A stretch of DNA of 63,820 nt, the filler included, from Folioceros fuciformis (lineage: Eukaryota): the NCBI GenBank assembly GCA_049999805.1. It is 9 parts of 9 records of this genome, joined end to end, with 100 filler letters (N's around TTAATTAATTAA, not from the genome) between each part and the next. Parts side by side here need not be neighbours in the genome. Positions count along the whole stretch, not along the records: positions 20,338 to 38,759 come from JBNGIO010001267.1; 8 more parts are not named here. One strand, written 5' to 3'. Under the pieces are notes generated by a model. That model ran no database searches and was not told the origin of the DNA. It was given only the letters and a program-made list of their open reading frames with translations. A program made the position numbers and the translations under genes. Positions within the stretch are counted from its first letter, which is position 1, and the number at the start of each line of letters is the position of its first letter. This document shows, piece by piece, positions 9,540 through 54,119 of this stretch.

Positions 9540-9780
9540 TGATGGGCCTTCGTGCATGTCTTCAAAAACCTGGAAAAATCCTTACTCATAACCCCATGCG
9601 TTTCAATAGCAAGGGGGTTGAACAAGTGATCTTGTTGCATGGGCCTGTTTGCAAGTCTTCCTTGTCGCGCTTCCTTCTGCCGGCCAACCCAGGGGGTTGA
9701 TAATGATGTGCTCGCTAATGGTTGTCTGAGTGGGGTCTCTGACCATCACATCCGCTATAGAAACTTAGTCCCCCTTGGTC
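9540..9780 (-). mobile_element. Fragment of RLE-type (CRE-like) non-LTR retrotransposon
   Basis: Nucleotide match to about 18700-19500. Encodes ADVMVRDP, IINPLGW and PLAIET.GVM-like segments. Confidence 0.75.
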
Positions 9781-9882
9781 AAGAAAAAGCTCTTCTAAGT
9801 CATAGGAATAGTGTTCTTCTTCTTTCCACTATAGTGTCTTCTTTCAACATTGTGTAGCTTCCTCTTCTAATTGTGGGGCCTC

Positions 9883-9965
9883 CTTTCAACAACATGTATC
9901 CATGGCTTTGCATTATCCAATGCGGTTTTTATAACAGCAACAAGTGTAGATCAAGCGGCTTCTTC
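9883..9965 (+). mobile_element. RLE-element 3' coding fragment, opposite in orientation to 9540-9780
   Basis: CAACATGTATCCATGGCTTTGCA...CAATGCGGTTTTTATAACAGCAACAAGTGTAGATCAAGCG matches the reverse complement of about 22680-22760. Confidence 0.65.
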
Positions 9966-18575: not shown

Positions 18576-19540
18576 TTATAGTGCAATTGAAACTTTTTGC
18601 TTAAAAAAAAAATCGCAATGGAAACCCATTGCCGAAAAAAAAATGCCACCACACCATGACATGGATAAGGGAAGCCCTACGCCGCTCTTGCTGATGTGAG
18701 GGGCCTTCGTACATGTCTTCAAAAACCTAGAAAAATCCTTACCCATGGCCCTAAGCGTTTCAATAGCAAGGGGATGAACAAGTGACCTGGTGCATGGGCC
18801 TGATCTTGCAAGGCTTCCTTGTCGCATTTCCTTATGCCGCCCAACTCGGAGGGTTGATAACGACGTGTTCACCGATGGTTGTCCGATTGGGCTATACTTG
18901 CAAGTCTTCCTTGTTGCTCTTCCTTCTGCCGCCCAACCCGGAGGGTTGATAACGACGTGTTCACTAATGGTTGTTCGAGTGGGCCTATACTTGCAAACCT
19001 TCCTTGTCGCGCTTCCTTTTGCCGCCCAACCCGGAGGGTTGATAACGACGTGTTCACTGATGGTTGTTTGAGTGAGCCTATACTTGCAAATCTTCCTTGT
19101 TGCGCTTCCTTTTGCCGCCCAACCCGGAGGGTTGATAACAACGTATTCACCAATGGTTGTTCGAGTGAGCCTATACTTGCAAGTCTTCCTTGTCGCGCTT
19201 CCTTCTGCCTCCCAACCCGAGGGTCGCGCTTCCTTCTGCCGCCCAACCTGAAGGTCGCGCTTCCTTCTGCCGCCCAACCCGAGGGTTGATAACGACGTGT
19301 TTATTGATGGTTGTCCCAACCTGAGGGTCGTGCTTCCTTCTACCGCCCAACCTGAGGGTTGCACTTCCTTCTGCTGCCCAACCCAATGATTTGATAACGA
19401 CGTGTTCATTGATGGTTGTCCGAACGGGGTATGGTGGTATGGTTGTCTGAGGGGGTCTGTGACCACCATATCCGCTATAGAAACCTAGCTTCTTGACCAG
19501 GGTCTGTGACCACCATATCCGCTATAGAAACCTAGCTCCT
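18576..19540 (-). mobile_element. RLE-element 3' remnant with internal tandem amplification (93-bp and 31-bp units)
   Basis: SIADMVVTDP, repeated VVINPPGWAAKGSATRK.CKY, PLAIETLRAMGKDF and QKVSIAL. GATAAC.ACGT recurs at 18856, 18948, 19041, 19134, 19288 and 19393. Confidence 0.8.
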
Positions 19541-20849
19541 TTGGTCAAGAGAAAAGGTATGTGATGAGGAGACGCCAATTTGGGTCAATTTCAAGGTAAG
19601 CGCACATAGGAGTGTTGAAGCTTTGAAGGGCAGAAGCATCCCCTCAAGACCAAATAAATACATATGCGCCAAGTCCGACCGCACCCGAAAGGGAGATGGA
19701 GCCCACCAGGTTGTACGTGGCGTGGTATGTAAGCATAGCGATGCGAAATAAAAACGAGACCGATCCAAGAAGCAGTGCGGGGAGGGAGTGGGACTCGGTA
19801 ATCGGGACTCCACTGGAGCCAGTGCCAAAATATGCTTGCGAACCGAAGGTGCAGTGCTGTCGGGGGATCATGAATGCCAATGAGCGCAAGAGCCAGGCAG
19901 CGAGGAAAAACTGGCACGCAGCACCCGGAGCCGGGAGACAGACGGACCGACATTATATCCCAAACGCCGAAGCTGTTACCGGAGCTGGCGGCCCGGTCGG
20001 GGCCAGGCGCCCATCAACTCCCCTCGCAACAGCTACCGAAGCTCGCGTCCCGTTCCGTCCCGATCCGACTCCCGAGTCTCGACTCCTTCCCTCTTCCTCT
20101 TCCCTCCACACATTCTCTCTCCTTCTCTCTGTCTGCCTGGAAGCTGTACAGTACGCTCATCAGCGTCGTCCTGCGCCTGCCTCTCTCATTTCGCCTCCCT
20201 CTTTCCCTCCCTTCCCTTCTTCCTTCCCTCCCGCCTTNNNNNNNNNNNNNNNNNNNNNNNNNNNNNNNNNNNNNNNNNNNNTTAATTAATTAANNNNNNN
20301 NNNNNNNNNNNNNNNNNNNNNNNNNNNNNNNNNNNNNGTACTGTGTGAAACGGAGTGTGGCGCGTTTAGGCCCGTACAGCACTCCACCAGTCGGTAGGGG
20401 AAAAGTGAAGCCCGGCCTCCCCGCCGTGTGGTGTGGCGTGTATTCACCCGGGCTTAGCGCTCCCCTCACGCCCACTTTTGTTCAATGCAGCTTCAGGAAC
20501 ATTAAAGGCCCGCTGCCTGCAGCCGACAGCCTGGCGTCTCGCAACCTTCTGCTCCGCCTTGAAATCAAGACCCGACGTGTGGGCCTCTAGTTGCACTTGC
20601 GAATCGGGCCCGACACGGCCTAGTTTCACATGCGGATGCATGGCCACAGCGATGCCATACAATATGGACTGATTTATTTATTTATTTTAAAAAATAAGAT
20701 GGAAAAAACATATACCGCTAAACACGGAAATAAACCATGATAGGAACACTAGGATCGATAAAAGATATGTGTAAATATTTAATTCATTCTACCTATTCTT
20801 CTCTATACCATTTTCCTGCTAAGGGTATAATTAAATGAATTTGACATCA

Positions 20850-20952
20850 AGACATCTAGCGCCGCTGGACGTCGACGAAAGTTACTATGATTTTGTTCCC
20901 GAGATACAGGTTCGATCCTGGCACTGATTATGCTTCCTCGACAAGAATTTTT
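20850..20952 (+). other. Possible tRNA-derived SINE head or Pol III unit
   Basis: A-box-like TAGCGCCGCTGG (20857-20868), B-box GGTTCGATCC (20909-20918) and T5 run (20948-20952). No acceptor-stem pairing, so not a tRNA. Confidence 0.35.
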
Positions 20953-21020
20953 CTCCCACCTACGTAATGTATAGGTGAATGAAAGACGTCCTCGTCTTTG
21001 AATGCCTGGATTGCTTGGAG

Positions 21021-21590
21021 CTAGTATCCCCCGTAGTAGACGTAGGAGGTGAAGTTGTCAATGGCCGAGACGCCGGAGAAGGAGTAGACGGTGGATTCGG
21101 ACCAGCCGCGAGCGAGGCGGAAGAGGCCGGTGCCGCCGACGATGGAGCTCTCTCGCACGGGCGAGAAAATGGGAGTGAAGCCGCGGTAGTTGATGGTGGT
21201 GCCGGTGGGGAACCCGCTGGCGTGGTTGAAGACGACGGTGAAGACGAGCTCCAGGGCGGGCTGGGAGTCGTCGTTGTTGTCCCAGACGTAGAAGCCCTTG
21301 GCCCGGCCCACGGACTCGGAGGCGGGGTCGGGGGAGACGGTGAGCAGGTCGTCGAACACCACCACGCCCCCGAACAGGCTGTGCCCGGAGACGTTGGCGG
21401 GCAGGCCGCCCAGCGGCGGCACCACGAAGAAGGCGCTGGGGTCCGGGATGAGCAGCCTGTCGTGCAGGAAGAAGGTGATCTCCGTGTACTGCGGCCTGCT
21501 CTTGGCCTCCGCAGGCACGGACTGGAGCAGGGCCGCGAGCACTGCGAGGGCGGCCAGCGCCGCGGCGGCCGAGAGGGGAGCGTTCTCCAT
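21021..21590 (-). CDS. DIR: Dirigent-family protein, secreted, intronless
   Basis: Signal peptide; FFLHD, FGGVVVFDDLLT, SESVGRAKGFY, RESSIVGGTGLFRLARGW. Confidence 0.93.
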   Translation of the reverse strand: MENAPLSAAAALAALAVLAALLQSVPAEAKSRPQYTEITFFLHDRLLIPDPSAFFVVPPLGGLPANVSGHSLFGGVVVFDDLLTVSPDPASESVGRAKGFYVWDNNDDSQPALELVFTVVFNHASGFPTGTTINYRGFTPIFSPVRESSIVGGTGLFRLARGWSESTVYSFSGVSAIDNFTSYVYYGGY

Positions 21591-22619
21591 GGCACCGGCT
21601 TGAGGATGGGGTTCCTTGTGCCCGTTAATGTATGGTACTGATTGGAAGGGCGTATTCGGGGCAGGGAGATTTGGAGTCAGCGGGAATATACCCGCGGGGG
21701 ATAGGCTGGGACGCTTCGAGGGTGCTTCATCGGAAGGTTCTGGGATGGGGCTTGCTAGCTCGGGGTGGCTAGTTTCGGGCTTGTTCGTGGTGCATGCACT
21801 GGATGGGCGATAGAGAATTTGTGTCGAAATCGGGGTGCTAACCTGCAGGGTGTTGATCTTCCGGGATTATGGAAGTTACGAGTGTTGGGTGGTGACGGGA
21901 GATGGTGGTGGTCGATCGGAAAGGAAGCGCGTACCCCAATGCGAGCATTTCAGTCGTTCTGAGATACCGAGTTGACGCTGAAGTCCTGTGTGTAAGTGTG
22001 ACGGGTATCGGTCTGAGGGAGAAATTCATCGCAGTCGAGCGCATCGGCAGTCGGCATTGAGTGTGCGTAGATGGACCCCATGTACCGCCGAATCGGATAC
22101 ACGATAATCTTTCTTGCACACATTTGAAATCGTGGAAGCTCACCAGTGGAATGAATACACGATGACAGGAAACGAAGATGGATCGCTTCTCTGCGTGCCA
22201 CCAGATGCGAATTCATCAGCTTGAGCTTGAGTGTTAGCCAATTCGAAGGAGTTCGTGGTTCCGAGCCTTGCATTATCCGATGCATCAAATTGCACAGGTT
22301 TCGATCTTACGGACGGATAAGATAGCTTGATGGCCAAACAGTTTCCTCTGGCAGCTGGGATCGCATCTCCAGGAATACAGGAAAAGGAAGCGGGAGGCCC
22401 GGGCCGGGCCGGGTTGAGTTCTCCATTTTGATCGACCACTATTGACCGACTTAGCTTTGCTACTCAATGCGGCTTGTTTACTCCTGGTCGAGATATACAA
22501 TAATTACTAAATAAATAATTTAATAATAATATAGAGAAAAATATAAATGTGTGCTCTATTATGTGCACCTGCTCTTTCCAAGCTTTATAAATACCCATCT
22601 CAATCTATCTTATTATTAC

Positions 22620-23700
22620 AGAAGGACCAAAAATGCCTACCGGTGCCGAACCAAAAATGCCTACTGGTGCTAAAGAAGTCGCTTGACCTGCACTTGCTGC
22701 TGTTCTAAAGACCGCATTGACCAATCCTCGTTGCAAAGCAATGGATACGTGTTGTAGAAAGAAGGCCACCATAAAGGAAAGAGGGAGAACACCATTCCTA
22801 TTGTTCTAATAAACCTTAGTGCACTCCTTGATAAACCTTGAAAAGTCCTTGCTCATAGCCCCATAAGTCTCAGAAAAGTCCTTGCTCATAGCCCCATAAG
22901 TCTCAAGAGCCAAGGGGGATGAAAGTATGCCTGTCTTGCAAGAATACTTATGGACTTTGGCACTTGCACAACCCTCTACCTCCCAACCAGGGGGGTTGAT
23001 GATGATATGCTTGTAAATCGAATTCCTAGTGGGATCCGTAACAACTACGTCAGCAACACAAATTTATTCGCCCGTAAATCGAATTTCTAGTGGGATCCGT
23101 AACAACTGCGTCAGCAACACAAATTTGTTCACCCGTAATCGAATTCCTAGTGGGATCCGTAACAACCGTGTCAGCAACACAAATTTGTTCGCCCATAGTG
23201 AACAAAAGGTCAGGTCTAAGTGAAACCCCGTTGCACAAAGTATATAGACGCTCCCTATACAAAAGAAACCCACACTTCCTAGTCATTGAGAACATGATAT
23301 CCTGAAGTGCATCATGAGTGGCAATGCAGTGCCCCCCAATGGGACAACATGCCAAATGAGACTTTGTATCAACAATGGCAACCCCACAACTGCATGTAGA
23401 GAGAAAAAGCCAAGGGGTGGGGCAAACCTAAGCGAAATCTCATCGCGGTGGCGAAAGTTGCTGGTGCGATTCGAAACACCTGGATGCAAGGTCGAGCCAA
23501 AGGCCAAGAGCCGCTTCTATACCTGAACAAGATTGAATACGAGCTCAAGAAGACCTAGGGACGGATGAATTTGAAAGAAGGGCTCTTAGTGCTTGGCCAT
23601 ATTGCTTTTCTAGCAGAGAGGCTTGGAGACCCTTAACCCTTTCCTAGAAAAGGAGGTGAAAGGAGGAGAAGGACCCTCTAACCAAAGGTAGAGAATCCCT
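22620..23700 (-). mobile_element. Longest RLE-type (CRE-like) non-LTR retrotransposon 3' remnant: CCHC knuckle plus restriction-like endonuclease
   Basis: ARIQSCSG..A..LW, CSCG...D..SHLACCPIGG....HD, RPDLL, ADTVVTDP, KVHKY, PLALETYGAM, QHVSIALQRG. Frameshifted, with internal 60-bp (x3), 34-bp and 23-bp duplications. Confidence 0.82.
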
Positions 23701-24073
23701 CGGTTGCATAAGAGATACCTGTAATGGGAAAGACTTGATTGTATGCAACACTCCAAGATTTAAGTAAAATTGGTAATAAATTAAATATTCTACTTATGGC
23801 GTCATCTCTAAACAATCAACGTACATTATAAATTCGTATATGGTTAAGACTTACATAGTACCTTGGATATTGGCTTTGGAGCTACAAGCATTGTACGATA
23901 AGCAATACAATAATTTTGAGAAAAATGCAAATTTATTACTTGCTAGGATAATTGAGACAAAGCTTTGCACATGGTTAAAATGACATGTTGTCCCATCTAA
24001 ATATCTCAAATTTAGATGTTCCAAGTGACTAGCATGTTCTTGTCACTTGGTGAATCCTTATGTACACATGTAC

Positions 24074-24545
24074 TTTTCTTGAAGACCAATATTTTGGAAA
24101 CTAGCATGACGTGAAGCTAGGTAGGAATTCTTCAACTTTTCTTGAAGACCAATATTTTGGAAACTAGCATGAGGCGGAGCCAAGCCAGGAACTCTTCAAC
24201 TTTTCTTGAAGACCAATATCGTTTCTTGAAGAACAATATTTCGGAAACTAGCATAAGGTAGAGCCAAGAACTCTTCAACCAATGTTAAAACAATGCACCA
24301 TCTTCAACCAACGTTGAAACAATGCACAGTCTTCAACCAATGTTGAAACAATGCACAACAGCCCTCACATGATGAGGCTCGAGGAAATAAAGGCAAGTGG
24401 AAATGAAGACGAATGGAGATGAAGACAACTGGAAATGAAGGCAAGTGGAAATGAAGACAAATGGAGGTGAAGACAACTGGAAATGAAGACAAATGAGAAT
24501 GAAGGCAAATGGAAATGAAGACCAATGGAAATGAAGACATAAGAG
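24074..24545. repeat. Compound tandem repeats: about 63-bp unit x3, about 28-bp unit x3, then a short GGAAATGAAG-based array
   Basis: TTTTCTTGAAGACCAATAT at 24074, 24137 and 24201; CTTCAACCAA.GTT.AAACAATGCAC x3; GGAAATGAAG(A/G)CAA repeats at about 24390-24540. Confidence 0.85.
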
Positions 24546-25512
24546 TCCACAATTCAAGAGTGCCAGATTCGTGGACCAGGTGACTTTCAATCTACTCCAT
24601 CTACTCCACTCAGCCTTATAATACTGCCCTGGGCATCGCCAGAAATCAGACCAAAACTGTATCAACAGATGGTTTTTTTGAAAAGAGCTTACTGACACCA
24701 GCAGTTGGAGGAGACACAATCAAACAACGGTAAAACGTGGCACACGAGGTCCGCGATATGGGGCTCTTGGGAAGCGTGCCCCATGGGGTGTCCACGCGGC
24801 TTCGATCCTCTATCCACTGAAGCTTAAAAAAAAATGCGCCGCCCTCAAATCAGCTTGCAAAAAAGAACCCACAGACGTTCTCTGCAGATGTGGATTCCAC
24901 TGCCGCTGGCACTGGAAGGGGGCACAGCAGTAGACGTCTACAACCAAATGTTGAATCGAGGCGGATCCGTGTTGCACAGAAAGAGGCTCTTGGATCCGTG
25001 AGAGTTTATCATTCATCATCAGAATGCGAGATTTTGAGAGTTCGGGGTACAGGTGACAAACACACTCAATCTTCTAGCTATTGAAGAGCGCGCATCGGCC
25101 GGAGCCAAAACTAAATTGGAATCAAAAGAGCGTCGTGTAATAAGGTTATTGTATGGGACTCCCTAAGGTGGAAAGGGCTTCCCAGCAGTTGAGAAGACTG
25201 CCATGCTCCACACACAGTACCAGCCTAGTGTCAGGAACTTATTGGGTTAGCTCACTCAACACGAGTTGAAAAGAATCGTTCTAAACCTGCAGGACTTCGG
25301 TATCGTTTTGCTAGCGAAGTGCCCGATTCTACCTTCACGCTGTACACCAGACTCTGCAGCAGCTTGCACAGATGTCCAACGTAATTATCCCTCTCCTCCG
25401 CAAAATTCTCTCAGACAAGCTCCGTGCAGGGCTGCAGAATTATTCCAATCTCGCTCCTTCAAATCCCAGTCCTTGCAGCCCGGCAAAGATAGAGCCGGCA
25501 AGTTGGGCCGAC

Positions 25513-26821
<1,309 letters not shown>

Positions 26822-29091
26822 TGATCAATGCAGCCTCTCCTTCCTCCACTTCCCGAATCCCGACAACGCCCCCTTCCGCAGAGACTTCCGTCTCCCGTAC
26901 CAGATTGGACTGCTTGAATCGAGGCAGAAGAATGCTCCAAAAGCTTGTCGTCTCGTGTGAAATCTCGTGTCACGACTCGAGGCGCGGGGGCAGTAGAGGC
27001 AGCTCTGGCTGCCGGTGGAAGGTCCAGACGCCAGACGGTGCTTATATACCACGCTACATCTTGCTCCGTCGACATGGCTGCCGTGAGCCAGCTGGGCGGG
27101 ATGCTAATAATACTCGAGGATAGTGCGCTGCACATCGCCACAACCCAAATCCAGAACCGCCGTTGCACAGCATCCCGCAGACTAGACCCTCCCAAGCTCC
27201 AGCCTCCCTGAGTCCCCTCCTCCTTCTTTTGGCGGCACCTTCCGGCGTCCCCGCCTCAGATCCGGCTAATTTACACGGCGTTCGGCTAATTTAGCCGGCG
27301 TTTGGCTGTCCGTGGCCGTACGTGGGGAAGGGGTCGGCGGTGGATGGTCGCCGCGGATCACCAGCCGGGTCTCGGCCTTGCGTGCGGGCTCCACGCCTGG
27401 GTACCGGGACTGGCTACAGTAAGCGATGTGCGTAAGTGTGACGAAGTGGACCCCTCCGTCGCCGAGGCGGGAGAGGACTGTGGCACCGGCCACATGTCCC
27501 GGATGGGCCGTCGCATTGCGGCTCCGTCTCTCCAATTTCGGTGTTCTTCTCTATTTTTGTGAAACCGGGATCGGGGGATCGGGGAATCGGTTTGCAGTAT
27601 GGTCCGCCAGCTCAAATGCATTTCATCGAGAGGCTCGGGACAGCTAGACAAACGCGATTGCGTTCGTGTCTCAGCGTCCTTCCTGTGTGTCTTCTGACGA
27701 ACAGGATAAGGAAGGCAAGTGGAACTCTGCGACTTCGATGAGACAAGCGTGTGTCCGTTTGAATTTGCGTCAAAGCCACGGCGTGCTCCTGCGTCCGAGA
27801 CTCTAATTTGAGCTAGGGAATCAACTTGGCTTCCTAACCCCTGCTCGTCGTCTTGCTCCATGTTTGCTGACACGCCAGTTCAGAGTTCCGGAGGGCTGCG
27901 TTCCCGACACTCTCCTTTATTTCATCAAAGCTGTTTCCTCCATAACCATATCCGTCTCTTCTCCTATTCTCCTGAAACACTAACATGGGAACCTGACATG
28001 GAAACCCTAGAAGGCTTTGGTAACATGTTCTGTAGGTGCGAAAGGTGTCGCTGCAGCACCGTTTTATTTTCCTTGCTGGTCAACATTCTTCTTCCTTTCT
28101 CGGTGGGACAGTCCAAGCGGGTGGTGGAAGGAAGATTTGTGGATGCTGTATTGCATGTTCTGCACCACAAGTCGGCCACAAGTCTGCTGTTTTCCCCACG
28201 TTTCCAAATCCTTTCACAATCAGATCTGTTCCACTAAAGCCTTGGTAGAATCCGAGAGTCCACAGGGGCAGTTGAGAGATGCCAATCCGCCAAGATGGCA
28301 TCCGGAAATGATTCTGTCTGAAGACGTGTTCCACGGCGCTTGCTTGGCATACTGTGGAAGCGACCACGTTGAAATGAGTAGAAACAGTTACAGTGTGCCT
28401 GCCGGTTCCCTTACGACGAGACTGTAACTTTTTTTGCATCTTCCGCCGATGCCTCGGCTTGGTTTCATGCACCAACCTAGGAGGTGAAGCAGACATTCGG
28501 TGACAGTAAAGCCGGAGCAAGCCCCAGTTGTCCTCCACGGATGCACGATGTTGCAGCACACGAATGCGGATGGCAAAAAGCTTCTGGTGGAAAAAAACTT
28601 GTGAGCCGACGGATGAATCCCGAAACCTCATCGTCTACCGCTCATTTTCGGGCTGGTGAAAGCAAGATGGTTCAGAACAGTCTTCTTCTCCACCACATGC
28701 TGCAGAGGCTCGAGATCTCCCTTCACGTGCCACACCGCCATCATTGGCCGTGACAGCCTGACGCTTCCTCCGCACTTCATGCTCCTGTGAACAATTTCCG
28801 GCAGGGCAGGTTACGCAATTGCATCACGCAACGCGCTTTCCAGCACGTGTGCCAAGAACTCCGCAGACCTCATAACTCGGTTGTGTTACGCTCGTCTCTG
28901 TTCTGGCTGCGTTCCACACCCACTGGCCGTTTCATCACCACCACAGTCGACGGGAGACACATTGATCTTCAAGCTGCCGAGGACAAAAGTAGCCATGCTA
29001 TTGGCCTACAGTAACCACAAACCTCGACGTGACAAAGCCAAGACGGCGCGACTCCATTAAATCCTTCATTAACCGAATTTGGCGTGTGGGA

Positions 29092-32000
29092 TCATCGGGG
29101 AAGCAATCTATCCACTGGAACGTATTCGGCTGCCGCTCTCTCTGCACTAGCGTTCGTGCTAAAGCCTGTGCTCGATGATGAGTCCCCAGAAGGAGTGGGT
29201 TGGTGACTGTAAAATGCACGGTTGGCTGGAGGAGCAGCGACTTGCTCTGCACGCGAGCCCATTGTGATCACAATGTTTTGTAACGTCTTGACGACCTCCT
29301 GCCACGTGTATTCTGAGTGAGGATAGATCATAATGTCTTAGGCTCCAGTGGAGGAAGAGAAAGATGGTGCGAACCTTGATGTCGGGGCGTTTTTCCCTGG
29401 CAGGAGCTGAACAGTCGAGAGCCAACCATGCCATCTTTTCAAAGGCACCTTCTGGGTAGTCCTTGACCTTGAGCATTGGGTCGATGATGCTATTGATGCC
29501 ATCTGCCGCAAGCCGAGAGTAGGCCTACAAGGCTGTCTAATTAGGAGAGAGCTCCTATGTCTCGTTCAAACGAGGTACATGATGTTCAGGACACGAAATA
29601 AGAGAATGGATACCTACCCACATGCAGAGGTTAGAGTCTTCTGATGCCCTACGTCTGTCGATAGCCTTTTGCCCACTAATGAGCTCAAGTAGAACCACGC
29701 CGAAGGAGAAAACATCACTGGCAGTTGTCAACTGAAGGCGTATGAAGTAGTCCGGGTCCAGGTACCTTTAGTCATATTGTGGAGCAGAGATCAGAATCGG
29801 ATGTCTGCTGAAAGGCTGTGGATAAGCAACGATATTGTGCTTTCGAGCCTTACCCTTCCGTACCAGCTGGGCTAGTTGAAACGTGAGTACTGAATTGCGG
29901 CGTGACTTTTGAGATGCCGAAGTCAGCCACCTTGGCAACCATATTGCCATCCAGCAAGATGTTGCTGGGTTTGATATCTCGATGTATAACACGAGGCTCC
30001 TGCTCATAACCAAAAGGTTTATCAGAAAAAATCCAGAAAAGCAGAGTTGACAGTATTGCTGGCTGGACGTCAGCAGGAGACTCTGGTGATGAGGGCTGGA
30101 AGCCTACTTACAGCAGAGTGATGCAGGTATTCCAGTGCTTTGGCAACAGATAGAGCAATCTCAATTCGCACGTGCCAATCCAGAGATGGACCGAGACGCT
30201 TCCCTGAAGCAAGCAAGACACCTCAATGTTATAATAAACTCCCTTCCGAATCGACAAGCATGGTCTGTCCTCAAAATGTAACGAAGGCTGACAAGCAGTC
30301 CTGAAGGTATGCATGGGAAGTCGCTGTACCTGTCAAACAGTCATGCAGATTGCCATTGCTCATGAACTCGTAAACAAGGATCTGAGGACACAGAAGACGT
30401 TATTTCCCTTCGCCTGATACGCCAAGCCCTCAGCAGCCGATTCGTGGATTGTCGATCTTAAAAGCATCAGCTATGAAAGCACAAGATGCAGAGAGTCGAA
30501 CCTGCTGTTCGCCATCGTCGCAGAATCCCACAATGCCCACGAGGTTGGGATGACTCAGTTTACTTAAAAGATACAACTCGTTCCGAAACTCGTTGCTGCT
30601 GTAGCACTTATCAGGATTTGCCTTCTTGATGGCTACTTCTTCTCCGGTTTGCAACTTTGCATAGTACACCTTCCCGAAGCCGCCTGAGCCAATCTCATTT
30701 TCAGCTTTAAAGCCGCCTGTCACTGCTTCCAAGGATCTGAGAGAGAACCGTCGTAGATTTGGTGGAACCCTCCAGCTGTCCTGTTGAGCTACTAAGTCAA
30801 TCGTACGCAATCTGTATGGATCCTCGTGACCTGCACGTGACCTGCAAGCGTGAATCCCGCTGGGGCCTGAACGCAAAGTCAACCCACACCCGATTGCAAA
30901 GCTGTAGAGTCAGGTCAGCAAGCCACACCTATGAGATCAGATTTCGCCTTCCTCCGAACTCTCCATCTCCACAAACACAAGAGTCCACCAACTATTACAG
31001 TCACTACGGAAACTACAACTGCAGCTGTCACAGTACGAGGAGTCCTTGATGATGTTTCTGCCAACTCAGGCGGTTGAACAGTGGGAGGAGGAGGAGGAGG
31101 AGGATGCGACAGAGGGTCTGTCAATCATGCAAGACAGCACATCAGTTGGTATGACGATGCATCTCACTTCAAAGAGAAAGAGCCAAACAAAACCAGAACC
31201 TCCAAAGAGATCGGCATCCTCACTTGCTGAAAGAAACGCTCCGCAGCTGCCTGAGCGAGTGGCGTCTGCACAACTCGAATCAGTGTGGTCATCAGCATTG
31301 TTGAAGTCCTGAAAGCAATTCCCTTGCCACCTGCATATATCCAACACAGTTATGACATCTTGAGAGACCCGTTGACTGGCAAGCAGCATCCGTAATAATA
31401 GCTCATGCAACTCACGCCGTCGAGTAGTTGAAACCAGCAGGAGACCTTCCTGTGAAGTAATTGCACCTCAAGTCTCTGCAGAGGCGTATCAGAGCGTTAA
31501 GCCAGAGAAACGTGCATGGTCTTCCAACATATACACATGCACCTCTGACCAGAGGGAATGCTCGCAGCTTACACATAGTCCTTTATCGGCAAGGTCCAGA
31601 GTGGGAAAAAGCCTTGAAGTTTGTTGTGATCCAGCCTCCTGCAATGGTGAAGTATCTACCTCCATCATAACATCAAGTGACAAACGAGAAGCTTCACAGT
31701 TCTGATTACTGAGAGAACTGGGGCTTTATGAGGATGGCGTACAAATATTTCAAGTTTGTGAGCTTCGTCCAGCCAGTTGGTACAGGTCCAGTGAACTGGT
31801 TACCACCCAAAAATCTGGAAAAGGTCCACGCACATTGGTACATGCCTTGAAATCAGGCACAGATGGATGCAAAAGGGCTTAACCCACCTACTTACAGAAA
31901 GGTAAGCTCTATGAGATTTACAATGGCTTCTGGCAACGATCCGCCAAAAACGTTTCCGTCCATCCGTCTGCGTAAAATACAAGACGAGTATATCAGAGAT

Positions 32001-32852
32001 GGATCAAATAAGAGGTTACAAGATCTGCCATCTTCTTGTCCCATTCCGTATGTTGCTGGAAAAGCTACCAGTCCTTACAAGTCACGCAGACCCGTGAGCT
32101 GCAGCACTGAGTTTGGGAATGGTCCTGTAAGATTGTTGTCGGTAAGATGCCTGCACATTATGAGACGGGGTAAGGGGTATCTAATAGGCAACGATTCTGC
32201 ATCAGAAGATTCTTCGGCCAGAATGGCTCTCAACAGGGCTTACAAGAGCTGTAGGTCTTCCAAGCCGGAAAAACTTGGAGGGACGCTGCCCGTCAGGTGG
32301 TTGTTACGAAGGTCAAGTGCTTGAAGATGACGGAGGTTTCCGATCGCAGCGGGAATGGGCCCCTTCAATCCCAGGCTGGACAAGTTGCTGCACAAACAGA
32401 GCAACCCACTCGGTCAGCTAGTCGGTCTTGGGACGTACATTCACATCGACAACTAAACTTCGGAAGGTTGGAAGGAGATGGGTATTTGGGAACGAAGGCA
32501 GAGAGAGGAATGAGAAGCGATGTTACAGCGTGATCACGTCCCCAGAACTGCAGAACACATATTCTGGTGTCGTCACTAGGCAAGGGTCGATTACGTTCGC
32601 CCAAGAAGGTCGCGTAACGTTCAGGAAATTGAATATCGAAATCAGCGTAGTTCCTGCAATGACGCAGGCGACGACGTGAGCCTCCGCAGATCTCCACGTC
32701 TCTCTTCTTCGCCAGTTCCATCTGAGCAAGGAGAAAACAGGGAGCTTTTGCAGAGGGGCGGAGAGAAGCCAACCATCCTGAAATGAGGCATGCGCCCTAG
32801 GAAGCAACACAAGCGAAAGGAGTGCCAGTGCAGTGAAGCCGACGGACCACAT
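29092..32852 (-). CDS. LRR receptor-like kinase, multi-exon
   Basis: Signal peptide, W..DPC..V.C cap, about 7 LRRs in short exons (e.g. [12 protein letters not shown]), poly-Pro linker and TM helix. Kinase motifs [57 protein letters not shown]. Confidence 0.92.
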
Positions 32853-33571
32853 TGCCGTGCAGGCTATGCTACTTCAGCTGCCTGAGTTCCTGTCATCCAT
32901 CCCCAAGACCAGAAGCAAACGACACGATGGTTGGTTTCCCGCGCTTCGGATTGCAGCTCACGCCATTGGATCGCCACACAGCTCAGGTGACTGGGAACCA
33001 GAAACACAAGTCGTCACCTTCGCAACCATGGAAAGTGACAGCCCGGAGGCTGGTGAGAATCACATCACGCCCTCGCGAATCGAATCGCCTCGACCCGTCG
33101 ACCCCTCAACTCGAAAGCTCAGAACGACGAGCAGACATCCCCGCGAGATCTGGGGTCACACGCTGACAAAACAGTTGTCCACGAGCGACAAAGTACATAA
33201 TAGATTCCTCTCCTTACACACAAAGTCCCCGCATTGCCCGACTGTAGTAGATATTAGTTGGACAAGAGACGGAGCAATGGAGAGTGTAAGGAACCGTCGC
33301 AGGTGTGGCCTACCGCAAATCCGTACCTGTAACGCGGCAATATCAGCGACCAGGTAAACAAAACGGGGTGGGATTTGATCTGATGACACAGTTACAGCTT
33401 GCAACCTGGATTTCAGTGCACTGTTTCCTTTTCTGTAACGCAAGTCGGGAAGTACTTGCAAGGGTTAAATACGAAGGTAACCACTGTTCACATTCCGGCT
33501 TTGCAGAAAAGAAAACCTTCCCGAACAAATTTAGAACTCTGCTCATCACTCAAATTGGCACTCACTCGCGC

Positions 33572-36064
33572 CTACGTATAAGCCAGGTGTTGCCTCCCCA
33601 CGGTTCTCCGTTGCCGCGCAAGCTCATCGAGGTCTCGTACAATCTTGAACACAGCATCAGGTCGCGCAAGTTTGGCGGCGTTCGAGGCCATTTCGCTTAG
33701 CTCCGCAGCCTTGGGGCCAAACCAGTCGGCCACAATCCTAGCAATTTCCTTCGGGTTATCACAGAATTTCCCGGCTCCGTTATCAACTACGAAGGGAACA
33801 TTCCCGGCTTCCTGGAGAGAGTCAACGAGTGGATTAGGTCTATGCACTCATTCCAAGCAAGGAATCTGATATGACTGATGAAAAATCGCAGACCTGGCCC
33901 GCAATGAAATCGCTTAGAAGCATCGGCAATCCTCTGATCATTGCTTCTGCTATTGTCCCAGGGCCAGCCTGCAAGACCATGTAGACGCAATGACGCCATG
34001 AGAAACGTAACTCCACCGTGCACACAGGACGTACATCAGCATCAGCAAGATACAACAAATGACAGACCTTGGTGATGACACAGTCACATGCTCCCATCCA
34101 ATCCGACATATTGTTTACAAAACCCTTTATCTGCACAGCAAAAGAGCCCCCATCAGGACAAGGTTTGCCAACAGGTCGACAAGCAGCAATACTGAAGGGA
34201 TAAAATCACAGGTGCAAGTGACCAACGTTCATGACCTGCACAGGCATAGACCATTTAACGCCTTGAAGCTTGTTCACAAGTTTTTGATTTCGTCCACAAA
34301 CCACAACCAGCTGTCCGATGGCCTTTCCGTTTTGTGCATCATACAACGAAGTGCCAAGTGCCCTGGCAGTTGACTCCACCGGACCCATACCTTCTCCTCC
34401 CCCCATCAAAAGCACTGCCGGCAGATCTTCGTCCATGCCCAGCTCTTGGCGAAGTTCATCCTTTCAAGGTGGATAACAGATATCAGGAAACAATGCCAAC
34501 CACATAGGTGAATTTCCCTTGCAATACACTACAGAACAAGTAATGCACACACATATGATCATCATAAGCGTCCTAAAGAAAGGACCGACCTGGACAACCA
34601 TGGCAAATACCTTGGAGCGAGTAGACTTGCAGAAATTAGGTCGAATTGGAAGACCGTGTACTCGGATTTGAGAACTTTGAAGACCTGCCTTTTGTGCTCT
34701 GAGCGCGACCTCCTTCGTTGGGCAAAAGCAGGCAGTTACTAGTTTGTGAAACCTGACAGGCGTTGTAAGACGGCATACGGACAGAAGACTCAGACAATCA
34801 ACACAAGAGAAAGAGGACGAACGAAAAGCAAGAGCAGAGATCGGACACCCTCATCCATACCAAGTAGGATGGCAGGTACTCAGGTCTGTAATAACAGTTG
34901 TGAAGGGTATCTTATGAAGGAGACCTCTAGCACGCAGCACTCTCAGCGGAATGTGCTGCATCAATGGATGTACACTGACAATAACATCCGGCTGATGCTT
35001 CATCAACCCCTTGGCCACCTCTCTGCAGCCAGCCACAGGAGCTGCAGCGTTAAGTTAGGCCATCGTACACAGAGCCAAGCCCGGAAATCCTAACCTGATG
35101 AAAGAAGAGCAATTTCCCTGCTTAGAGCCCTCTTCAGATGGCAAAATCACATACCTAGCCACAAAAGCTGAAGTTGCAGCCATCTGAGACTGATGGACGA
35201 AACGAGGGGCGGTCCCGTGAAAAGTCATCTTCCACAGAGCCTCGTGTCTCACCAGGAAGCTGTAACTCCGAGGAAACTGATTGAAAGGCCAGGGTGTATG
35301 CTCCTTCCAGAGGTCGATAATCGTGACCTGAAACCACAAACCAGAATCGTGGGCTGACACACACAAGTCCACTCCCATTCCATCCGAAAGCACAATGAGC
35401 AACAAGGACACCGCCTACATCACGCCACAGACGTCAAGGCCAACGAGTAGGATACAAAACCTATCACAGAGCATGAATTTCCATCCAAGATCGCCTGCAG
35501 GAAGAAAAAAAATGGCATCCAAAAATGAGAAGGAAAATTGGTGCACGACATACAAGAGTGGCCCGGCATCGCAGGAAGCAGACGAACCTTGTACAGGTCC
35601 CCATACTCCAGCTCAAAAGTTGCTTTAATGGCCTCCGCCGACGCGCGATGGCCCCCGCCGGTGTCACTCATGAGAATCAAAACCCTCTTGTGCGGCGCCG
35701 CAGCCACGAGCTCCGCTGAGCCATCCCCTGCCTCTTGCACACCGTCATCCCCGCCTCCCAGGGCCCTACTATCATCTTCCACGGAATGTGACAACCCCGG
35801 CAGCGGCTCGCAGTTGCTCCGGATGCGGCAGTGCAGCTGATCCCAGATGCGACTGCGCTGGTACCGGGCCCGGGATCCGAATCCCGGCAGCGAGAGAGAA
35901 GCTACGGGGCGCGCGACACCGTAGGCCGCCACGGCACTGTCATCCCGACCCGAGGAGCAGCATTCTGGCTGGAAAGGGGATGCCGATGGAGCGGGCCGGA
36001 AGGAGGCAGCCAGGCTGGGGGAAGTGGATGCGGCGCTCCCCAGGCGCTCCGCTGCGCTTGGCAT
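33572..36064 (-). CDS. MGD1: Monogalactosyldiacylglycerol synthase (type A-like, long N-terminal transit region), multi-exon
   Basis: [84 protein letters not shown]. Confidence 0.96.
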
Positions 36065-36685
36065 TTTTGCTCCAAGAACCCGATGCCAGACTCACGCGGC
36101 CACCATGCCTCTGCCTGTCCACTACGACAGCAGGACAGCCACGGCACGTCGAAGCCAGACAGAGCGTAACGAAACAAGACAAGGAAGAAGATCGGTGAGC
36201 GGGAAGGCTGGGACAAGGTTGGCTTGCCTGTCCCACTTATCCACAATGCCGCCGCTGACTGGTGGAGTCCCTTCGGCTCTTATATTAGATATCTCTGTCC
36301 TGTTCTTTTCATCAGTTTTTGCTTGTAGAAAGAAACCTGTGCTAGGCACAACTTGCTTTTTAACTCCAACCTCGCCAAGTGCCCTTAAGATGGAGACATT
36401 AGAAACTGATCCACCTCATCTTTTTGCCCTCTCTCTTCATTACACTACTCAGTAGCTCCAATACAAAATACTCTCAAACTGTACTTAATATTAATTTATT
36501 TTTTATTAATTAAAAAGATTAAAATCAAAGCATAGTGCAATATTGTTAGGTCTAAGTATTTTCTATTATTGAAAAAAAAGATAAAAAGCCTGTATCTACT
36601 CCAAAGATTAGAAACCACTCCAAGAACAACCCACCCACGTAGGGCTTCTCAAAAACTCCTCATATTATGATATGGGATAATAAAA

Positions 36686-37520
36686 GGCTTACCTACCATT
36701 CGTGCTGAAGAAATAAGAGGCCTACCTACCAGTAGTGCTAAAGACGTTAATATTAGTGCAACATTAGTGCTGAAGAAGAAAAAGCTGCTTGACCTGGCTT
36801 CTTGTTCTTCTAAAAAATTGTATTGGCTAATATTCTTTGCAAAGCTATAAATAGGGTTCTGGGTTTAGGGTTTAAACCCTAAACCCTATGCTGAAGAAGC
36901 TGCTTGACCTAGCTTGTTGCTATTCTAAAAATCGCATGGGCCAATGTTCTTTGCAAAGCCATAGATAGGGCTTAGGATTCAGGGTTTAGGGTTTAAACCC
37001 TAAACCCTATGCTGAAGAAGGGTCTTGACCTAGCTTGTTGCTACTCTAAAAACCGCATGGGCCAATGTTTTTTGCAAAGCCATAGATAGGGTTTAGGATT
37101 CAGGGTTTAGGGTTTAGTTGCTATTCTAAAAACCGTATTGACCAAATGTTCTTTGCAAAGCCATAGATAGGGTTTAGGGTTTTAGAATTTAGGGTTTAAA
37201 TCCTAAACCCTGTGCTGAAGACGTTGATTGACCTAGCTTGTTGTTATTCTAAAATTGCATTGGCCAATGGTTTTTGCAAAGCCATAGATAGGGTTTAGGG
37301 CATTGGCCAATATTTTTTGCAAAGCTATATATAGGGTTTAGGATTGAGGGTTTAAACCCTAAACCCTTGTTGCTATTCTAAAAACTGCATTGGTCAATGT
37401 TCTATTCTTTGTCAAAAAAGGATCATCAAATAGGAAAGAGAGAGAACACCATTCCTGTTGATAAAATGCTGGCCATAACCCCATGAAACTATGCCTTGCG
37501 AGAATACTTATAGACTTTAT
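36686..37520 (-). mobile_element. RLE-element 3' remnant containing the telomere-repeat-punctuated tandem array (about 36768-37400)
   Basis: Both flanks match 22630-22960. Units translate LSMALQRTLAHAIFRIA on the minus strand and are separated by TTTAGGG/CCCTAAA tracts. Confidence 0.8.
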
Positions 37521-38425
37521 TATTGAGTATTATCTGGATATTACCACCCATTGAACCCGATACGGGGTTGGGAATACCGAGGCGTTCTTATAAATGTTCC
37601 TGCCCCCTTATGGACACCACATTTAAAGGGTGTTATAAAGTGCCGTCCACAAGTTCGACAAAATCGGGAGTGGGGATTGGAACTAAAACTCGACAAGGCC
37701 GGTCATGGGAAACAGCTACAGCTTTGCATGAAAATCAACGAGGGGTACAGGGGCGTATATGGCCTGTGGGCCTTTCTGGAAGGGACGGGACGACGTTGCC
37801 GAGTAATCTCTTCACGACCGATCCAGGTTTCGATCTTCCGCGCAAAGAAGGTTGTCTATCTACGTGGCTATCAAGGACTACAACGATGGGGAAATTCACG
37901 AGAAGGACAAGAGAACGTAGGGAGCAATGTTGAGTTTGTGAGGTTGATGTGGATCGTTCAACGACGGGGTCAGGAAGTTGAATGTTGTCAAGTGGTGCAC
38001 TGTGGGAGCGGAGGCTCGATCAGCAGAAAAGCGAGAACGAGTCCGAAAAGATAAAGATGTTTGCACAACAAGGTTACGATACAATGCTCGGACCCAGGCA
38101 TCAGAGCCTGAAGACTGTCTCCAAGGCAAACCGCAACAAGAAACAAGTAGTACAGCAGTGAATTCCACGGCAGATCTGCCAGTCCCGGAAAAACTCTAAC
38201 CTGCTTTGAGTACGAAAGCCAAACCTCTCGAATGTGGGAGACGCGGCGCTCACATTCGGAAAAATCGCCAGACGGTTGGCAGCCTACCTAAAAAAACCAT
38301 GCATGCGTTGCGCTCCTGTCCGCATGCCCGATCCTTTCACACCGGCCTACCTTGCACCTTGCGACGATGCAACGCCTGTTTCCAGATCTGGAGGTGGTGT
38401 CGTGTGCTGGTGGCAGCAGCCGTGG

Positions 38426-38759
38426 CTACCAATGCCGTCCGTTGTAGTTGCACATTCCGTAGCTGCAGACGGGGTGCTTGCCATGGCACTTGTTCCCGCA
38501 CCGCCCGCAGTTGTGCACGTCCTTCTTCAGCTGGACGCACTTCCCGTTGCAGCATGCGGATCCGAGGCCGCACTTGTTCCCGCACCTGCCGCAGTGGCTG
38601 TTGTGGGAGCGGATGTCGCAACATTGCCCGCTGCAGCATGAAGTGGCTCCTGCCTGCCTGTAGAACGACGAGCCGCACAAGTCGGGAACGGTGTTGCATG
38701 TGGCAGGCACCCGACGGAAGCTCTCATGCACGCTGGGGACGGCTCTTGCAATTCCTGAT
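38426..38759 (-). CDS. STIG1-domain cysteine-rich protein, 5' end lost at contig gap
   Basis: CCSGQCCDIRSHNSHCGRCGNKC...CCNGKCVQLKKDVHNCGRCGNKC...CSYGMCNY fits the Stig1 cysteine pattern. Confidence 0.88.
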
Positions 38760-40716: not shown

Positions 40717-41880
40717 ACTAGTGAACCGGCGCGGAACAAGCGGGAGTGCGCCGATAGACCGGCGCACACTGCCAAAGGCACATGTCTGTCAAGTGGAAAA
40801 CGAAACTTGCTTGGTGCTACATACAAAAATTATCATATCAATTTGTACTTAACACTTTTATCTAAACGTCTAACAAGTTTTCATTATTTTCAGGCGGCAA
40901 TGTATCGTAGTTGCGATTGAGGACGTATAGGTTTCTGCGAATGAGAGTCCTCGTTTGGGAGGGAAGCTGTTTTTGGCATGTCAAGTTAAATCCATATGCT
41001 AGAATAAAAGTGTCTTCAATGAATAATGTATCTACATGCTTCCGAAGTCTCCTGCTTGACCTGCGTCTGCGACCGCCACGTAATCCTCTTGGCGGAGCTT
41101 CATGTGGTAAAATCATCTCTTCTTGGTAACGACCCTCAAAAGCATCTAAACATTTGGTTACCCACTAGTGCACTTTGACATATGGTTTTTCGCATGTAAT
41201 ATCTGCCTCTAAGACTTTGGCAATCCGAAACGGCCTATTGTCTTTGTCAGTCTTGCAAGGGACTGCAATCATATGCTCTTTTTCTATTTCGGTTATATCC
41301 CCGTTCAAACTTTTGCGGTCCTCATTGAGGTCCGTCTCCCTACGGTATGCCCCCACAAACATGTTTCTTCTGGGAATCTCACGGATGCGTGGATTGTGAA
41401 CAACAATTTTGTTTGGTACAGTTACGGGTGCGTTCAATAATTTTGCCGCCTCCCGATTATACCACCGCCAAGAAGAATCAAGGTCTCTATCTACATCGGA
41501 GTTTATAGAATGCACGATAGCCTCTTACTCTGCCCAAAACCCATCCCACCACAAGTTTTTGCCTGGTCCTAAGTGTTGTCGTAATCGCATCTCCAGTTTT
41601 GATCTGATTTGTGCCAGATGATATTCAACGATAATGTCCAGAACTGTCCTTTTTTTTTTGCTCCTTCCGAGCGGGCAGGGTTTAGGATTTAGGGTTTAGG
41701 TACACTGGAGCTCCTATCGGCAGCAGTGCGCTGGTCTACCGGCGCACTGGAGCTCGTGCTGGGGGAAGTGCACTGATAAACCGGCGCACTGGAGCCCGTG
41801 CTGGGGGAAGTGTACTGGTAGACCAGCGCACTGCTGACATGTCGCACGCATGAGTTCGCCGGTCTACTGCCGCACTGCCG
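40717..41880 (-). mobile_element. Probable internally deleted DNA transposon: decayed ORF (about 41640-40862) between GC-rich palindromic repeats
   Basis: ORFs 41515-41165 and 41116-40862 are in one frame separated by a single TAG. Hairpin motif AGTGCGCCGGT(AG/CT)ACCGGCGCACT variants at 40745, 41725, 41767 and 41809. Confidence 0.6.
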
Positions 41881-53730: not shown

Positions 53731-54119
53731 TGTGATTTAGAATGGGCTGCAGACGTTGTGATTCAAATTGGGTTGGAGACATTGTGATTCACATTGGGAT
53801 AGAGACATTGTGATTCAAACTGGATTTGAGATGTTGTGATTCAGATTGGGCTCGACATGCTGCGATTTAGATTGGGCTGGAGATCTTGTGATTTAGCTTG
53901 GGCTAAACATGTTGTGATCCAGATTGGGCTGGAGATGTGGTGAATTCAGATTGGGCTAGAGACGTTGTGACTTAGATTGGGTTAAAGATGTTGTGATTCA
54001 AACTGGGTTGGAGATGTTGTGATTCAAATTGGGGTGGAGACATTGTGATTCAAATTGAGCTTGACACATTGTGATTCAAACTGAGTTGGAGATGTTGTGA
54101 TTCAGATTGGGCTCAACAC
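53705..54119 (+). repeat. 26-bp minisatellite, about 16 copies, runs into the gap; derived from copia RNase H coding sequence
   Basis: Consensus TGTGATTCAGATTGGGCTGGAGATGT reads C-D-S-D-W-A-G-D. Confidence 0.9.

What the first reader, a model, noticed from the sequence alone, without database searches (positions are those of the whole stretch)
36768..37400. Array of retroelement fragments bounded by telomere repeats and joined by telomere-telomere junctions
Seen: about 7 units, each 35-90 nt of the RLE element's 3' coding end (minus strand LSMALQRTLAHAIFRIA, matching 22680-22750). The first six switch into TTTAGGG-type repeats at the same point (...ATAGAT|AGGGTTTAGG). The other breakpoint varies (36889, 37010, 37117, 37213, 37300, 37368). 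Four junctions are head-to-head, including the perfect 28-bp palindrome AGGGTTTAGGGTTTAAACCCTAAACCCT at 36981-37008. The copy at 22.6-23.0 kb has no telomere repeats at these positions, so they look like additions. Established: TTTAGGG is the common plant telomere repeat, TTTAGGG/CCCTAAA inversion is the signature of end-to-end fusion, and some CRE-clade RLE elements such as fungal MoTeR are telomere-associated. Inference: repeated telomerase addition to broken or cDNA ends, then ligation or template switching, at an interstitial site about 0.7 kb upstream of the MGD1 start codon.
Basis: partly seen in the sequence, partly recalled or inferred. Interest (0 to 1): 0.8.

Follow-up and report, generated by a model that had tools for sequence, protein, structure and literature searches.

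The report
Telomere-repeat repair scar, tandemly amplified
A broken, dead retrotransposon copy was patched with telomere repeats added from both sides of the break, and the patch was then copied several times in place; the same inward-facing patch recurs at unrelated sites in this plant genome, so it looks like a general repair scar rather than a trait of the retrotransposon.

Summary
The array is real: seven 33-92 nt pieces of a non-LTR element's 3' coding end alternate with six TTTAGGG tracts, four head-to-head; two runs' contigs tile it without a mismatch. The units share derived changes absent from other copies, one G-side breakpoint, and only three C-side breakpoints: one or two telomere-filling events, then tandem duplication. 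The junction is not element-specific: inward junctions match 24 times on 20 contigs, outward ones 0 times. Empty-site comparisons show them inserted into LTR retroelements at clean breaks or deletions, 7 of 11 ends in register by 2 or more nt. This is the vertebrate short interstitial-telomere mechanism, in its two-ended form. The element has an R2-like endonuclease but does not target telomeres; it does carry telomere motifs in a 5' UTR minisatellite (25 of 25 loci). Three more junctions touch this element family; enrichment is unresolved (P 0.007-0.1). Telomerase as the source is inferred. The scan's index showed no earlier report of this.

The parts
36554..36761 (-). 3' UTR and 3' terminus of the decayed RLE non-LTR copy, with short partial duplications next to the array
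   Evidence: matches other copies
36762..36853 (-). unit U1, 3' coding end of the element; most diverged; groups with U6
36854..36887 (.). tract T1: about 3 G-strand repeats, inward junction, 2 C-strand repeats
36888..36967 (-). unit U2
36968..37008 (.). tract T2: 4 G-strand repeats with variants, inward junction; holds the perfect 28-bp palindrome 36981-37008
37009..37088 (-). unit U3, sister of U2 (92% identical, tree support 96/81)
37089..37116 (+). tract T3: G arm only, same variants as T2; C arm absent (read as deleted)
37117..37169 (-). unit U4 (shortened)
37170..37211 (.). tract T4: 4 G-strand repeats, inward junction with one mismatch
37212..37290 (-). unit U5, same start as U2 and U3
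37291..37300 (+). tract T5: 10-nt remnant of a G arm
37301..37333 (-). unit U6 (short), shares variants with U1
37334..37367 (.). tract T6: about 3 G-strand repeats, inward junction, 2 C-strand repeats
37368..37403 (-). unit U7, the only unit that runs on into the rest of the element; its junction is in telomere register by 2 nt
37404..37520 (-). decayed continuation of the element towards its 5' side, then truncation
   Evidence: 64-73% gapped identity to other copies
35420..36064 (-). start of a neighbouring MGDG synthase gene (ATG at 36064); neighbour only, no link shown
22659..23731 (-). second copy of the element on the same contig, without telomere tracts (comparison copy)

Best explanation
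A short interstitial telomeric insertion made during double-strand break repair, later amplified in tandem. Step 1 (inferred): a staggered break hit the 3' coding end of a dead RLE element, so that 55-80 nt ended up on both sides. Step 2 (inferred): telomerase added 2-4 TTTAGGG repeats to the 3' end of each side, priming on 1-2 matching bases. Step 3 (inferred from the junction sequence): the two G-rich ends annealed through TA, the only self-complementary word in the repeat, and were filled in and joined, giving GGGTTTAAACCC. Step 4 (shown by shared derived states): the unit of element piece plus filler was duplicated several times at the DNA level, with deletions trimming three units. One or two primary telomere additions account for all six tracts. 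The structure is most likely a neutral scar.
For: Shown: units share a 1-nt gap (4 of 4 units covering it; of 25 other copies only one has a gap there, part of a 7-nt deletion), T at column 76 (6 of 7 units vs 1 of 25), a non-A base at column 96 (6 of 6 vs A in 24 of 25), A at column 99 (6 of 6 vs 3 of 25). Five units form one side of a branch in the best tree, in 0 of 500 label shuffles as clustered. Same G-side breakpoint in 6 of 6, same C-arm length in 4 of 4, shared tract variants. Genome-wide polarity: inward 24 matches on 20 contigs, outward 0 (also 12 vs 0; outward 22-mer 0 with one mismatch allowed). Empty sites: clean insertion in an LTR in 7 of 7 other copies; filler at a 624-626 bp deletion against 2 independent copies; a young LTR cut at GGG, flank 100% identical to 6 copies. 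7 of 11 ends are in register by 2 or more nt (read; P about 1e-6 at 1/16 each). L039 shows the predicted primary product: a 22-nt direct duplication flanking an inward filler that was then amplified 25 bp x 5. At least 6 of 25 other copies have local tandem duplications without telomere repeats. Vertebrate precedent in PMC7215372 and PMC8537989 (passages).
Against: Telomerase is not shown; no telomerase-RNA fragment was identified. Tree support for one origin is weak (51/78) and units are only about as alike as family copies are to each other (85.3% vs 84.5%), so the amplification is old and could be close in time to insertion. The C-side junction of U2, U3 and U5 has 0 nt in register against family copies, so a second event or a deletion is needed. 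In the array the G arm (20-28 nt with variants) is longer than the C arm (15 nt), which a fold-back could also give. The 11 ends are the ones with comparison copies, not a random sample. 3 of 30 other junction loci touch the same element, which a purely general mechanism does not predict (P 0.007 on pooled background, 0.10 on the window's own background).
Confidence: 0.6

Rival explanations
1. Same history, but the filler was not made by telomerase: it was copied from telomeric DNA or RNA by a repair polymerase, or one G-rich end folded back on itself at TA and copied itself.
For: Fold-back through TA gives the same 12-nt junction (inference). Short fold-back inversions and insertions from telomeric regions are documented at yeast breaks (PMC11724301, passages). 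L186 holds an inverted 13-nt copy of nearby sequence, a mark of templated insertion. In-register bases fit templated priming as well as telomerase.
Against: A simple fold-back needs arms that differ by 7 nt or more; 7 of 8 exact junctions with both perfect arms of 12 nt or more differ by less, though only three of these (L034, L036, L037) are clean once variant repeats are allowed. Captured fragments should also give outward junctions, as in ALT cells where outward ones prevail (PMC10762111, passages); here there are none.
Confidence: 0.18
2. One reading: repeated, independent telomerase additions to broken or cDNA ends, with ligation or template switching during reverse transcription of the element.
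For: The G tract lies on the cDNA-sense strand at the growing end. There are three C-side breakpoints, one in register. L187 has a G tract 5 nt after a short 3'-end fragment (weak match, E 4e-4); L039 and L186 are further arrays in this family.
Against: Identical G-side breakpoint in 6 of 6 and shared variants inside tracts; nested sub-groups U2+U3 and U1+U6 indicate serial DNA duplication, not simultaneous copying from one RNA. 27 of 30 other junction loci do not touch the element's 3' end (32 scanned, 2 of them chance-length 12-mers).
Confidence: 0.12
3. The element's reverse transcriptase switched to the telomere-like motifs in its own 5' UTR and copied the C arm from there.
For: 25 of 25 fetched 5' loci carry 8-19 G-strand heptamers on the sense strand, the strand needed to template a C arm on cDNA.
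Against: Only 1 of 25 has the 15-nt perfect tract that the C arm needs; no flanking 5' UTR sequence follows the arm; it cannot give the G arm (one C-strand heptamer in 25 loci); the same junction occurs in LTR elements.
Confidence: 0.05
4. Assembly artefact.
For: Short-contig draft; no single piece spans the whole stretch.
Against: Units differ by 8-26%, so they are not read duplicates; X1 and X2 contigs match with 0 differences, one 1010-nt piece spanning U3 to the unique flank.
Confidence: 0.03
5. Relic of a true end-to-end chromosome fusion.
For: Head-to-head orientation is the textbook sign (PMC8537989, passage).
Against: Both flanks belong to one colinear element copy; arms are 2-4 repeats; 20 contigs hold such junctions.
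Confidence: 0.02

Closest known systems
Short interstitial telomeric sequences (s-ITS) inserted at double-strand breaks in primates, rodents and horse (PMC7215372, PMC8537989; passages read)
   Same: A few repeats inserted in one step; flanking deletion, clean insertion or direct duplication from a staggered break; bases in register at the break; head-to-head cases explained by a second telomerase on the other end.
   Different: There head-to-head is occasional (3 of 41 TERC-ITS loci); here inward junctions recur on 20 contigs with none outward, in a plant, and several were then amplified into minisatellites. No telomerase-RNA fragment was found here.
Inward telomere fusions with TA microhomology in human tumours (PMC10762111; passages read)
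   Same: Commonest inward junction is the TA-annealed palindrome, the 6-nt-repeat counterpart of GGGTTTAAACCC.
   Different: Somatic, long tracts, outward fusions prevail; here short, inherited, interstitial, inward only.
MoTeR and FoTeR telomere-targeting RLE retrotransposons of fungi (PMC7367193, PMC12857005; passages read)
   Same: RT plus C-terminal REL domain with the RAD variant; minisatellite-rich 5' region; telomere-like repeats near the 5' end.
   Different: This family inserts at dispersed non-telomeric sites; its telomere motifs are internal to a ~34-bp minisatellite; the array consists of 33-92 nt fragments, not whole elements, and MoTeR arrays are joined by same-direction tracts.
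Plant telo boxes / short interstitial telomere motifs (PMC3022908; passages read)
   Same: Short AAACCCTA-type motifs near a gene's 5' end; a telomerase origin was proposed.
   Different: Those are single motifs; this is a two-armed filler with empty-site evidence. No regulatory role shown here.

Membership tests
Break-inserted short ITS | Short telomere-repeat run at an internal site, using the organism's own telomere repeat | tested here: met
   Tracts of 10-42 nt inside a contig; long TTTAGGG runs reach contig ends at C783 and C1146
Break-inserted short ITS | An empty ancestral site exists | tested here: met
   25 of 25 other fetched element copies lack the tract; paralogous empty sites for L034, L035, L036. 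Orthologous empty alleles were not available.
Break-inserted short ITS | End-joining marks: deletion, duplication, bases in register | tested here: met
   624-626 bp deletion, clean insertion, 22-nt duplication; 7 of 11 ends in register by 2 or more nt
Break-inserted short ITS | Telomerase involvement (telomerase-RNA fragments, or genetic dependence) | not testable with these tools
   The telomerase RNA of this organism was not identified; no mutant data
Chromosome-fusion ITS | Flanks derive from two different chromosome ends | tested here: not met
   Both flanks are colinear parts of one element copy
RLE-encoding non-LTR retrotransposon | Reverse transcriptase upstream in a single long coding region | tested here: met
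   RVT_1 on a broken piece of a long copy, E 5.6e-5, below Pfam's cut-off; its 3 homologs carry PF00078, 2 of 2 rescanned above cut-off
RLE-encoding non-LTR retrotransposon | C-terminal CCHC knuckle and PD-(D/E)xK-type endonuclease | tested here: met
   Profile hits R2 proteins at E 2.5e-9; top 7 fold matches are all R2; motif C-x1-C-x9-H-x3-C-x8-THD-x19-E-x11-RAD-x12-D in 2 of 4 copies, degenerate in 1, absent in 1
CRE clade | RT groups with CRE1/2, SLACS, Cnl1, MoTeR in a tree | not tested
   No reference sequences in hand; motif spacing is close to that printed for SLACS/CRE and MoTeR in PMC12857005 but differs in two spacers and RHD reads THD
Telomere-targeting RLE element (MoTeR/FoTeR type) | 3' ends inserted in telomere repeats | tested here: not met
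   0 of 21 visible 3' termini among 25 loci
Telomere-targeting RLE element (MoTeR/FoTeR type) | 5' ends flanked by telomere repeats or chromosome-end location | tested here: not met
   0 of 20 examined 5' boundaries, three of which end at the contig edge; draft assembly limits this
Telomere-targeting RLE element (MoTeR/FoTeR type) | Telomere-like repeats and minisatellites in the 5' region | tested here: met
   25 of 25 loci

The most novel reading that the evidence does not exclude
This RLE family is coupled to telomerase away from telomeres: breaks or stalled cDNA ends near its 3' end are preferentially healed by telomerase on both sides and rejoined, perhaps helped by the telomere motifs in its 5' UTR, and the palindromic scar then breaks and re-duplicates, so the element seeds telomere-containing minisatellites. 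Four loci in this family (this array, L039, L186, weakly L187) fit.
Probability: 0.17. Interest if true: 0.8.

Novelty: new variant of a known kind. Interest (0 to 1): 0.45.

Why it matters
The array itself is probably a neutral scar. The wider pattern is the useful part: a strict inward polarity (20 contigs to none) with empty sites suggests that in this plant telomerase often extends both ends of an internal break and the ends are still rejoined, instead of the chromosome being truncated. That makes the long-proposed telomerase origin of plant interstitial telomere motifs testable at nucleotide level with a telomerase mutant and induced breaks. It also warns that a head-to-head telomere junction is not evidence of chromosome fusion, and shows one route from a repair scar to a new minisatellite. 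An RLE family with telomere motifs in its 5' UTR that does not target telomeres is a second lead.

Tried and rejected
Telomere targeting by the element: rejected. Chromosome fusion relic: rejected (colinear flanks). Element-specific junction: rejected as a general rule, enrichment unresolved. 5' UTR as template: poorly supported. A shared variant tract (exact 20-mer) occurs at one other locus, C6186, in unrelated sequence, and 11 more with one mismatch, so tract variants recur and are weaker evidence of common descent than the flank changes. Pfam gave no family above threshold for the endonuclease pieces; a homolog search among longer proteins and a single-sequence PDB search found nothing; the atlas gave only unnamed clusters. 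Blasting junction flanks against fetched loci gave no empty sites beyond those searched for directly. A scan for flanking direct repeats found long ones at 2 of 25 junction loci (L038, L039), so duplication is not the usual outcome. No RNA holder listed. Runs X3 and X4 cover few bins. Paper searches: the exact junction word gave 4 unrelated papers; searches listed no report of two-ended telomeric fillers in a non-seed plant or of this element family; the library lacks most subscription journals and no supplements were read. Passages of PMC3400083, PMC10856949, PMC10088271 and bioRxiv 2022.05.23.493040 added nothing specific. PMC3636483 was seen only as a search listing. The organism was not determined.

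Full report
Setting. The window is a chain of draft contigs joined by N spacers. The array lies inside contig C1267 (window 20338-38759) of an 87-Mb plant draft. The organism was not determined; long TTTAGGG runs reach contig ends, and named relatives of the element's protein come from Marchantia paleacea, Closterium and Spirogloea (7 of 10 looked up had such names).

Observation. Seven pieces of an element's 3' coding end (33-92 nt, minus strand) alternate with six telomeric tracts of 10-42 nt. Four tracts are head-to-head; three contain GGGTTTAAACCC exactly and 36981-37008 is a perfect 28-bp palindrome. The array has 19 telomere heptamers against 0.09 in shuffles. The element's 3' UTR and terminus lie at 36554-36761 and a decayed continuation at 37404-37520, so both flanks belong to one colinear copy. 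Contigs of runs X1 and X2 match with 0 differences: X1 36267-36827, 36870-37020, 36991-38000; X2 36200-36890, 36870-37011, 36991-37729. They are one sample, possibly the assembly's own, and break at the two identical junctions, so unit number is supported but not proven. An MGDG synthase gene starts 0.7 kb away.

The element. It is an RLE-type non-LTR retrotransposon: weak RVT_1 match on a broken piece and PF00078 on its homologs; a 40-sequence profile of the C-terminal part hits R2 proteins at E 2.5e-9; the model (pLDDT 85.6) has R2 structures as its top 7 matches; the motif spacing is close to that printed for SLACS/CRE and MoTeR (PMC12857005, passages). CRE membership was not tested by a tree. 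One search gave 46 matches and 30 loci; 25 are distinct copies elsewhere (four are this array, one a duplicate; 16 matches had no locus). None of the 25 has a telomere tract at the array's breakpoint, none of 21 visible 3' termini is followed by telomere repeats, and none of 20 examined 5' boundaries is preceded by them. It is not a telomere-targeting family. Unexpectedly, long copies carry a ~34-bp minisatellite with GGTTTAGGGTTTAG-type motifs on the sense strand upstream of the coding region: 25 of 25 loci fetched from 56 matches, 8-19 G-strand heptamers each, longest tracts 14-18 nt. MoTeRs also have telomere-like 5' repeats (PMC7367193, passages).

The units are copies of each other. Against 25 other copies the units share a 1-nt gap (4 of 4), T at column 76 (6 of 7 vs 1 of 25), a non-A base at column 96 (6 of 6 vs A in 24 of 25) and A at column 99 (6 of 6 vs 3 of 25). 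The best tree of five units (U6 and U7 left out as too short) and 25 copies puts the units on one side of a branch, with weak support (51/78) and 0 of 500 shuffles as clustered; U2 and U3 are sisters (96/81). U1 and U6 share variants and the shorter tract. The G-side breakpoint is the same in 6 of 6, the C arm has the same length in 4 of 4, and the C-side breakpoints reduce to three classes. Against this: units average 85.3% identity, family copies 84.5%, so the amplification is old, and one tract variant recurs independently elsewhere. This region duplicates readily without telomere repeats: at least 6 of 25 other copies have local tandem repeats.

The junction is a genome-wide feature. The 26-nt palindrome matches 7 times on 6 contigs; the 12-mer 24 times against 5 for the reversed control; a two-repeat 14-mer 653 times against 5. 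With matched patterns, inward junctions match 24 times on 20 contigs and outward ones 0 times (P about 2e-6 to 4e-6); an outward 22-nt palindrome is absent with one mismatch allowed. Three loci chosen because they lie in repeats gave empty sites: L036, a clean insertion into an LTR relative to 7 of 7 other copies; L034, filler at a 624-626 bp deletion relative to 2 independent copies; L035, a young LTR cut after GGG (flank 100% identical to 6 copies) and joined to another element. L039 shows a 22-nt direct duplication around an inward filler that was itself amplified. Reading, 7 of 11 ends with a comparison copy are in telomere register by 2 or more nt, 9 by 1 or more, 2 by none (one of these is the C side of U2, U3, U5).

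Mechanism. Shown: insertion into empty sites, inward polarity, register, serial duplication. Inferred: a staggered break duplicated 55-80 nt; both 3' ends were extended with G-strand repeats; they annealed at TA and were joined; the unit was then amplified and trimmed. Inward-only polarity is what extension of two 3' ends predicts, whereas captured fragments should give both orientations (outward ones prevail in ALT tumours; the TA microhomology is described there; PMC10762111, passages). A fold-back at TA would give the same junction but needs arms differing by 7 nt or more; 7 of 8 long exact junctions differ by less, three of them cleanly, while the array's own arms (20-28 vs 15 nt) do not exclude it. 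That paired nicks yield tandem duplications in plants, and that polymerase theta makes templated insertions, is recalled, not from a call. The junctions can fold into hairpins of about -7 to -12 kcal/mol; whether this drove amplification is untested.

Is the element special? A profile of its 3' 700 nt hits at the junction in 3 of 32 other junction loci (L039, L186, weakly L187; two of the 32 are chance-length 12-mers), within 400 nt of 1 of 26 one-sided tracts, and in 1 of 62 control pieces. L186 is a second amplified array of 67-88 bp units inside a decayed copy. Background coverage is 1.3% pooled or 3.8% in this window, giving P 0.007 or 0.10 for 3 of 30, and 0.06 or 0.32 without L187. Unresolved; this is the novel case.

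Comparison with what is known. It works like vertebrate short ITSs inserted at breaks, including staggered-break duplication and in-register bases (PMC7215372, passages) and head-to-head cases ascribed to a second telomerase, 3 of 41 loci (PMC8537989, passages). A telomerase origin was proposed for plant telo boxes (PMC3022908, passages). Ten searches listed no report of recurrent two-ended fillers in such a plant; I read passages only, no supplements, and the library lacks most subscription journals.

Verdict. Observation confirmed; interpretation partly supported. One or two repair events plus tandem amplification, 0.6; new variant of a known kind; interest 0.45, carried by the genome-wide polarity and the 5' UTR motifs more than by this array.

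Noticed in passing
L097:4662-5120 and L094:4637-5090 (5' region of long element copies); L130-L154: The RLE family has a ~34-bp minisatellite with telomere motifs on the sense strand upstream of its coding region, plus further G-rich minisatellites upstream, although it inserts at non-telomeric sites.
   Followed up: partly
L186:390-730 (C6255): Second amplified array of inward telomere junctions (67-88 bp units) inside a decayed copy of the same family; the spacer includes an inverted 13-nt copy of nearby sequence.
   Followed up: partly
L039:542-675 (C1737): Inward telomere filler amplified 25 bp x 5, flanked by a 22-nt direct duplication in the element's 3' UTR.
   Followed up: yes
L187 about 570-670 (C6162): G tract starts 5 nt after a short, weakly matching 3'-end fragment of the element, near the array's C-side breakpoint; possible telomere addition at a truncation point.
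   Followed up: partly
L038:1443-1596, L062:1006-1137, L066:970-1070: Further small tandem arrays built on telomere junctions outside the element; L062 lies about 220 nt beyond the truncation of an element copy.
   Followed up: no
L034, L035, L036: Inward telomere fillers inserted in LTR retroelements, with empty sites in other copies; L035 is in a very young LTR.
   Followed up: yes
L069, L079, L122, L123: Long telomere runs near contig ends mix TTTAGGG with TTAGGG and other variants.
   Followed up: no
run X3 on window 37271-37356: Only C-to-T differences at five listed places, as from a bisulfite library; could give methylation of the array.
   Followed up: no
P0004 (Spirogloea muscicola gene model): Nine tandem copies of the C-terminal part of a related RLE protein: the same region is tandemly amplified in another lineage.
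   Followed up: no
window 9547-10594, 18615-19491, 22659-23731, 53856-53910: Four more fragments of the same element family; two carry their own tandem repeats (93 bp x 4.6 at 18795-19224; 61 bp x 3 at 23013-23194).
   Followed up: partly
window 489-502 and 41677-41700: Two one-sided short telomere tracts in other contigs of the window.
   Followed up: no
window 7724, 16209, 20238, 38760, 43728, 48489, 54120, 62720: Artificial N-spacer joints: the window is nine unrelated contigs, so neighbourhood across these points means nothing.
   Followed up: yes
L041 (C4736) and L048 (C7138): Same junction and flanks on two contigs, probably one locus assembled twice.
   Followed up: no
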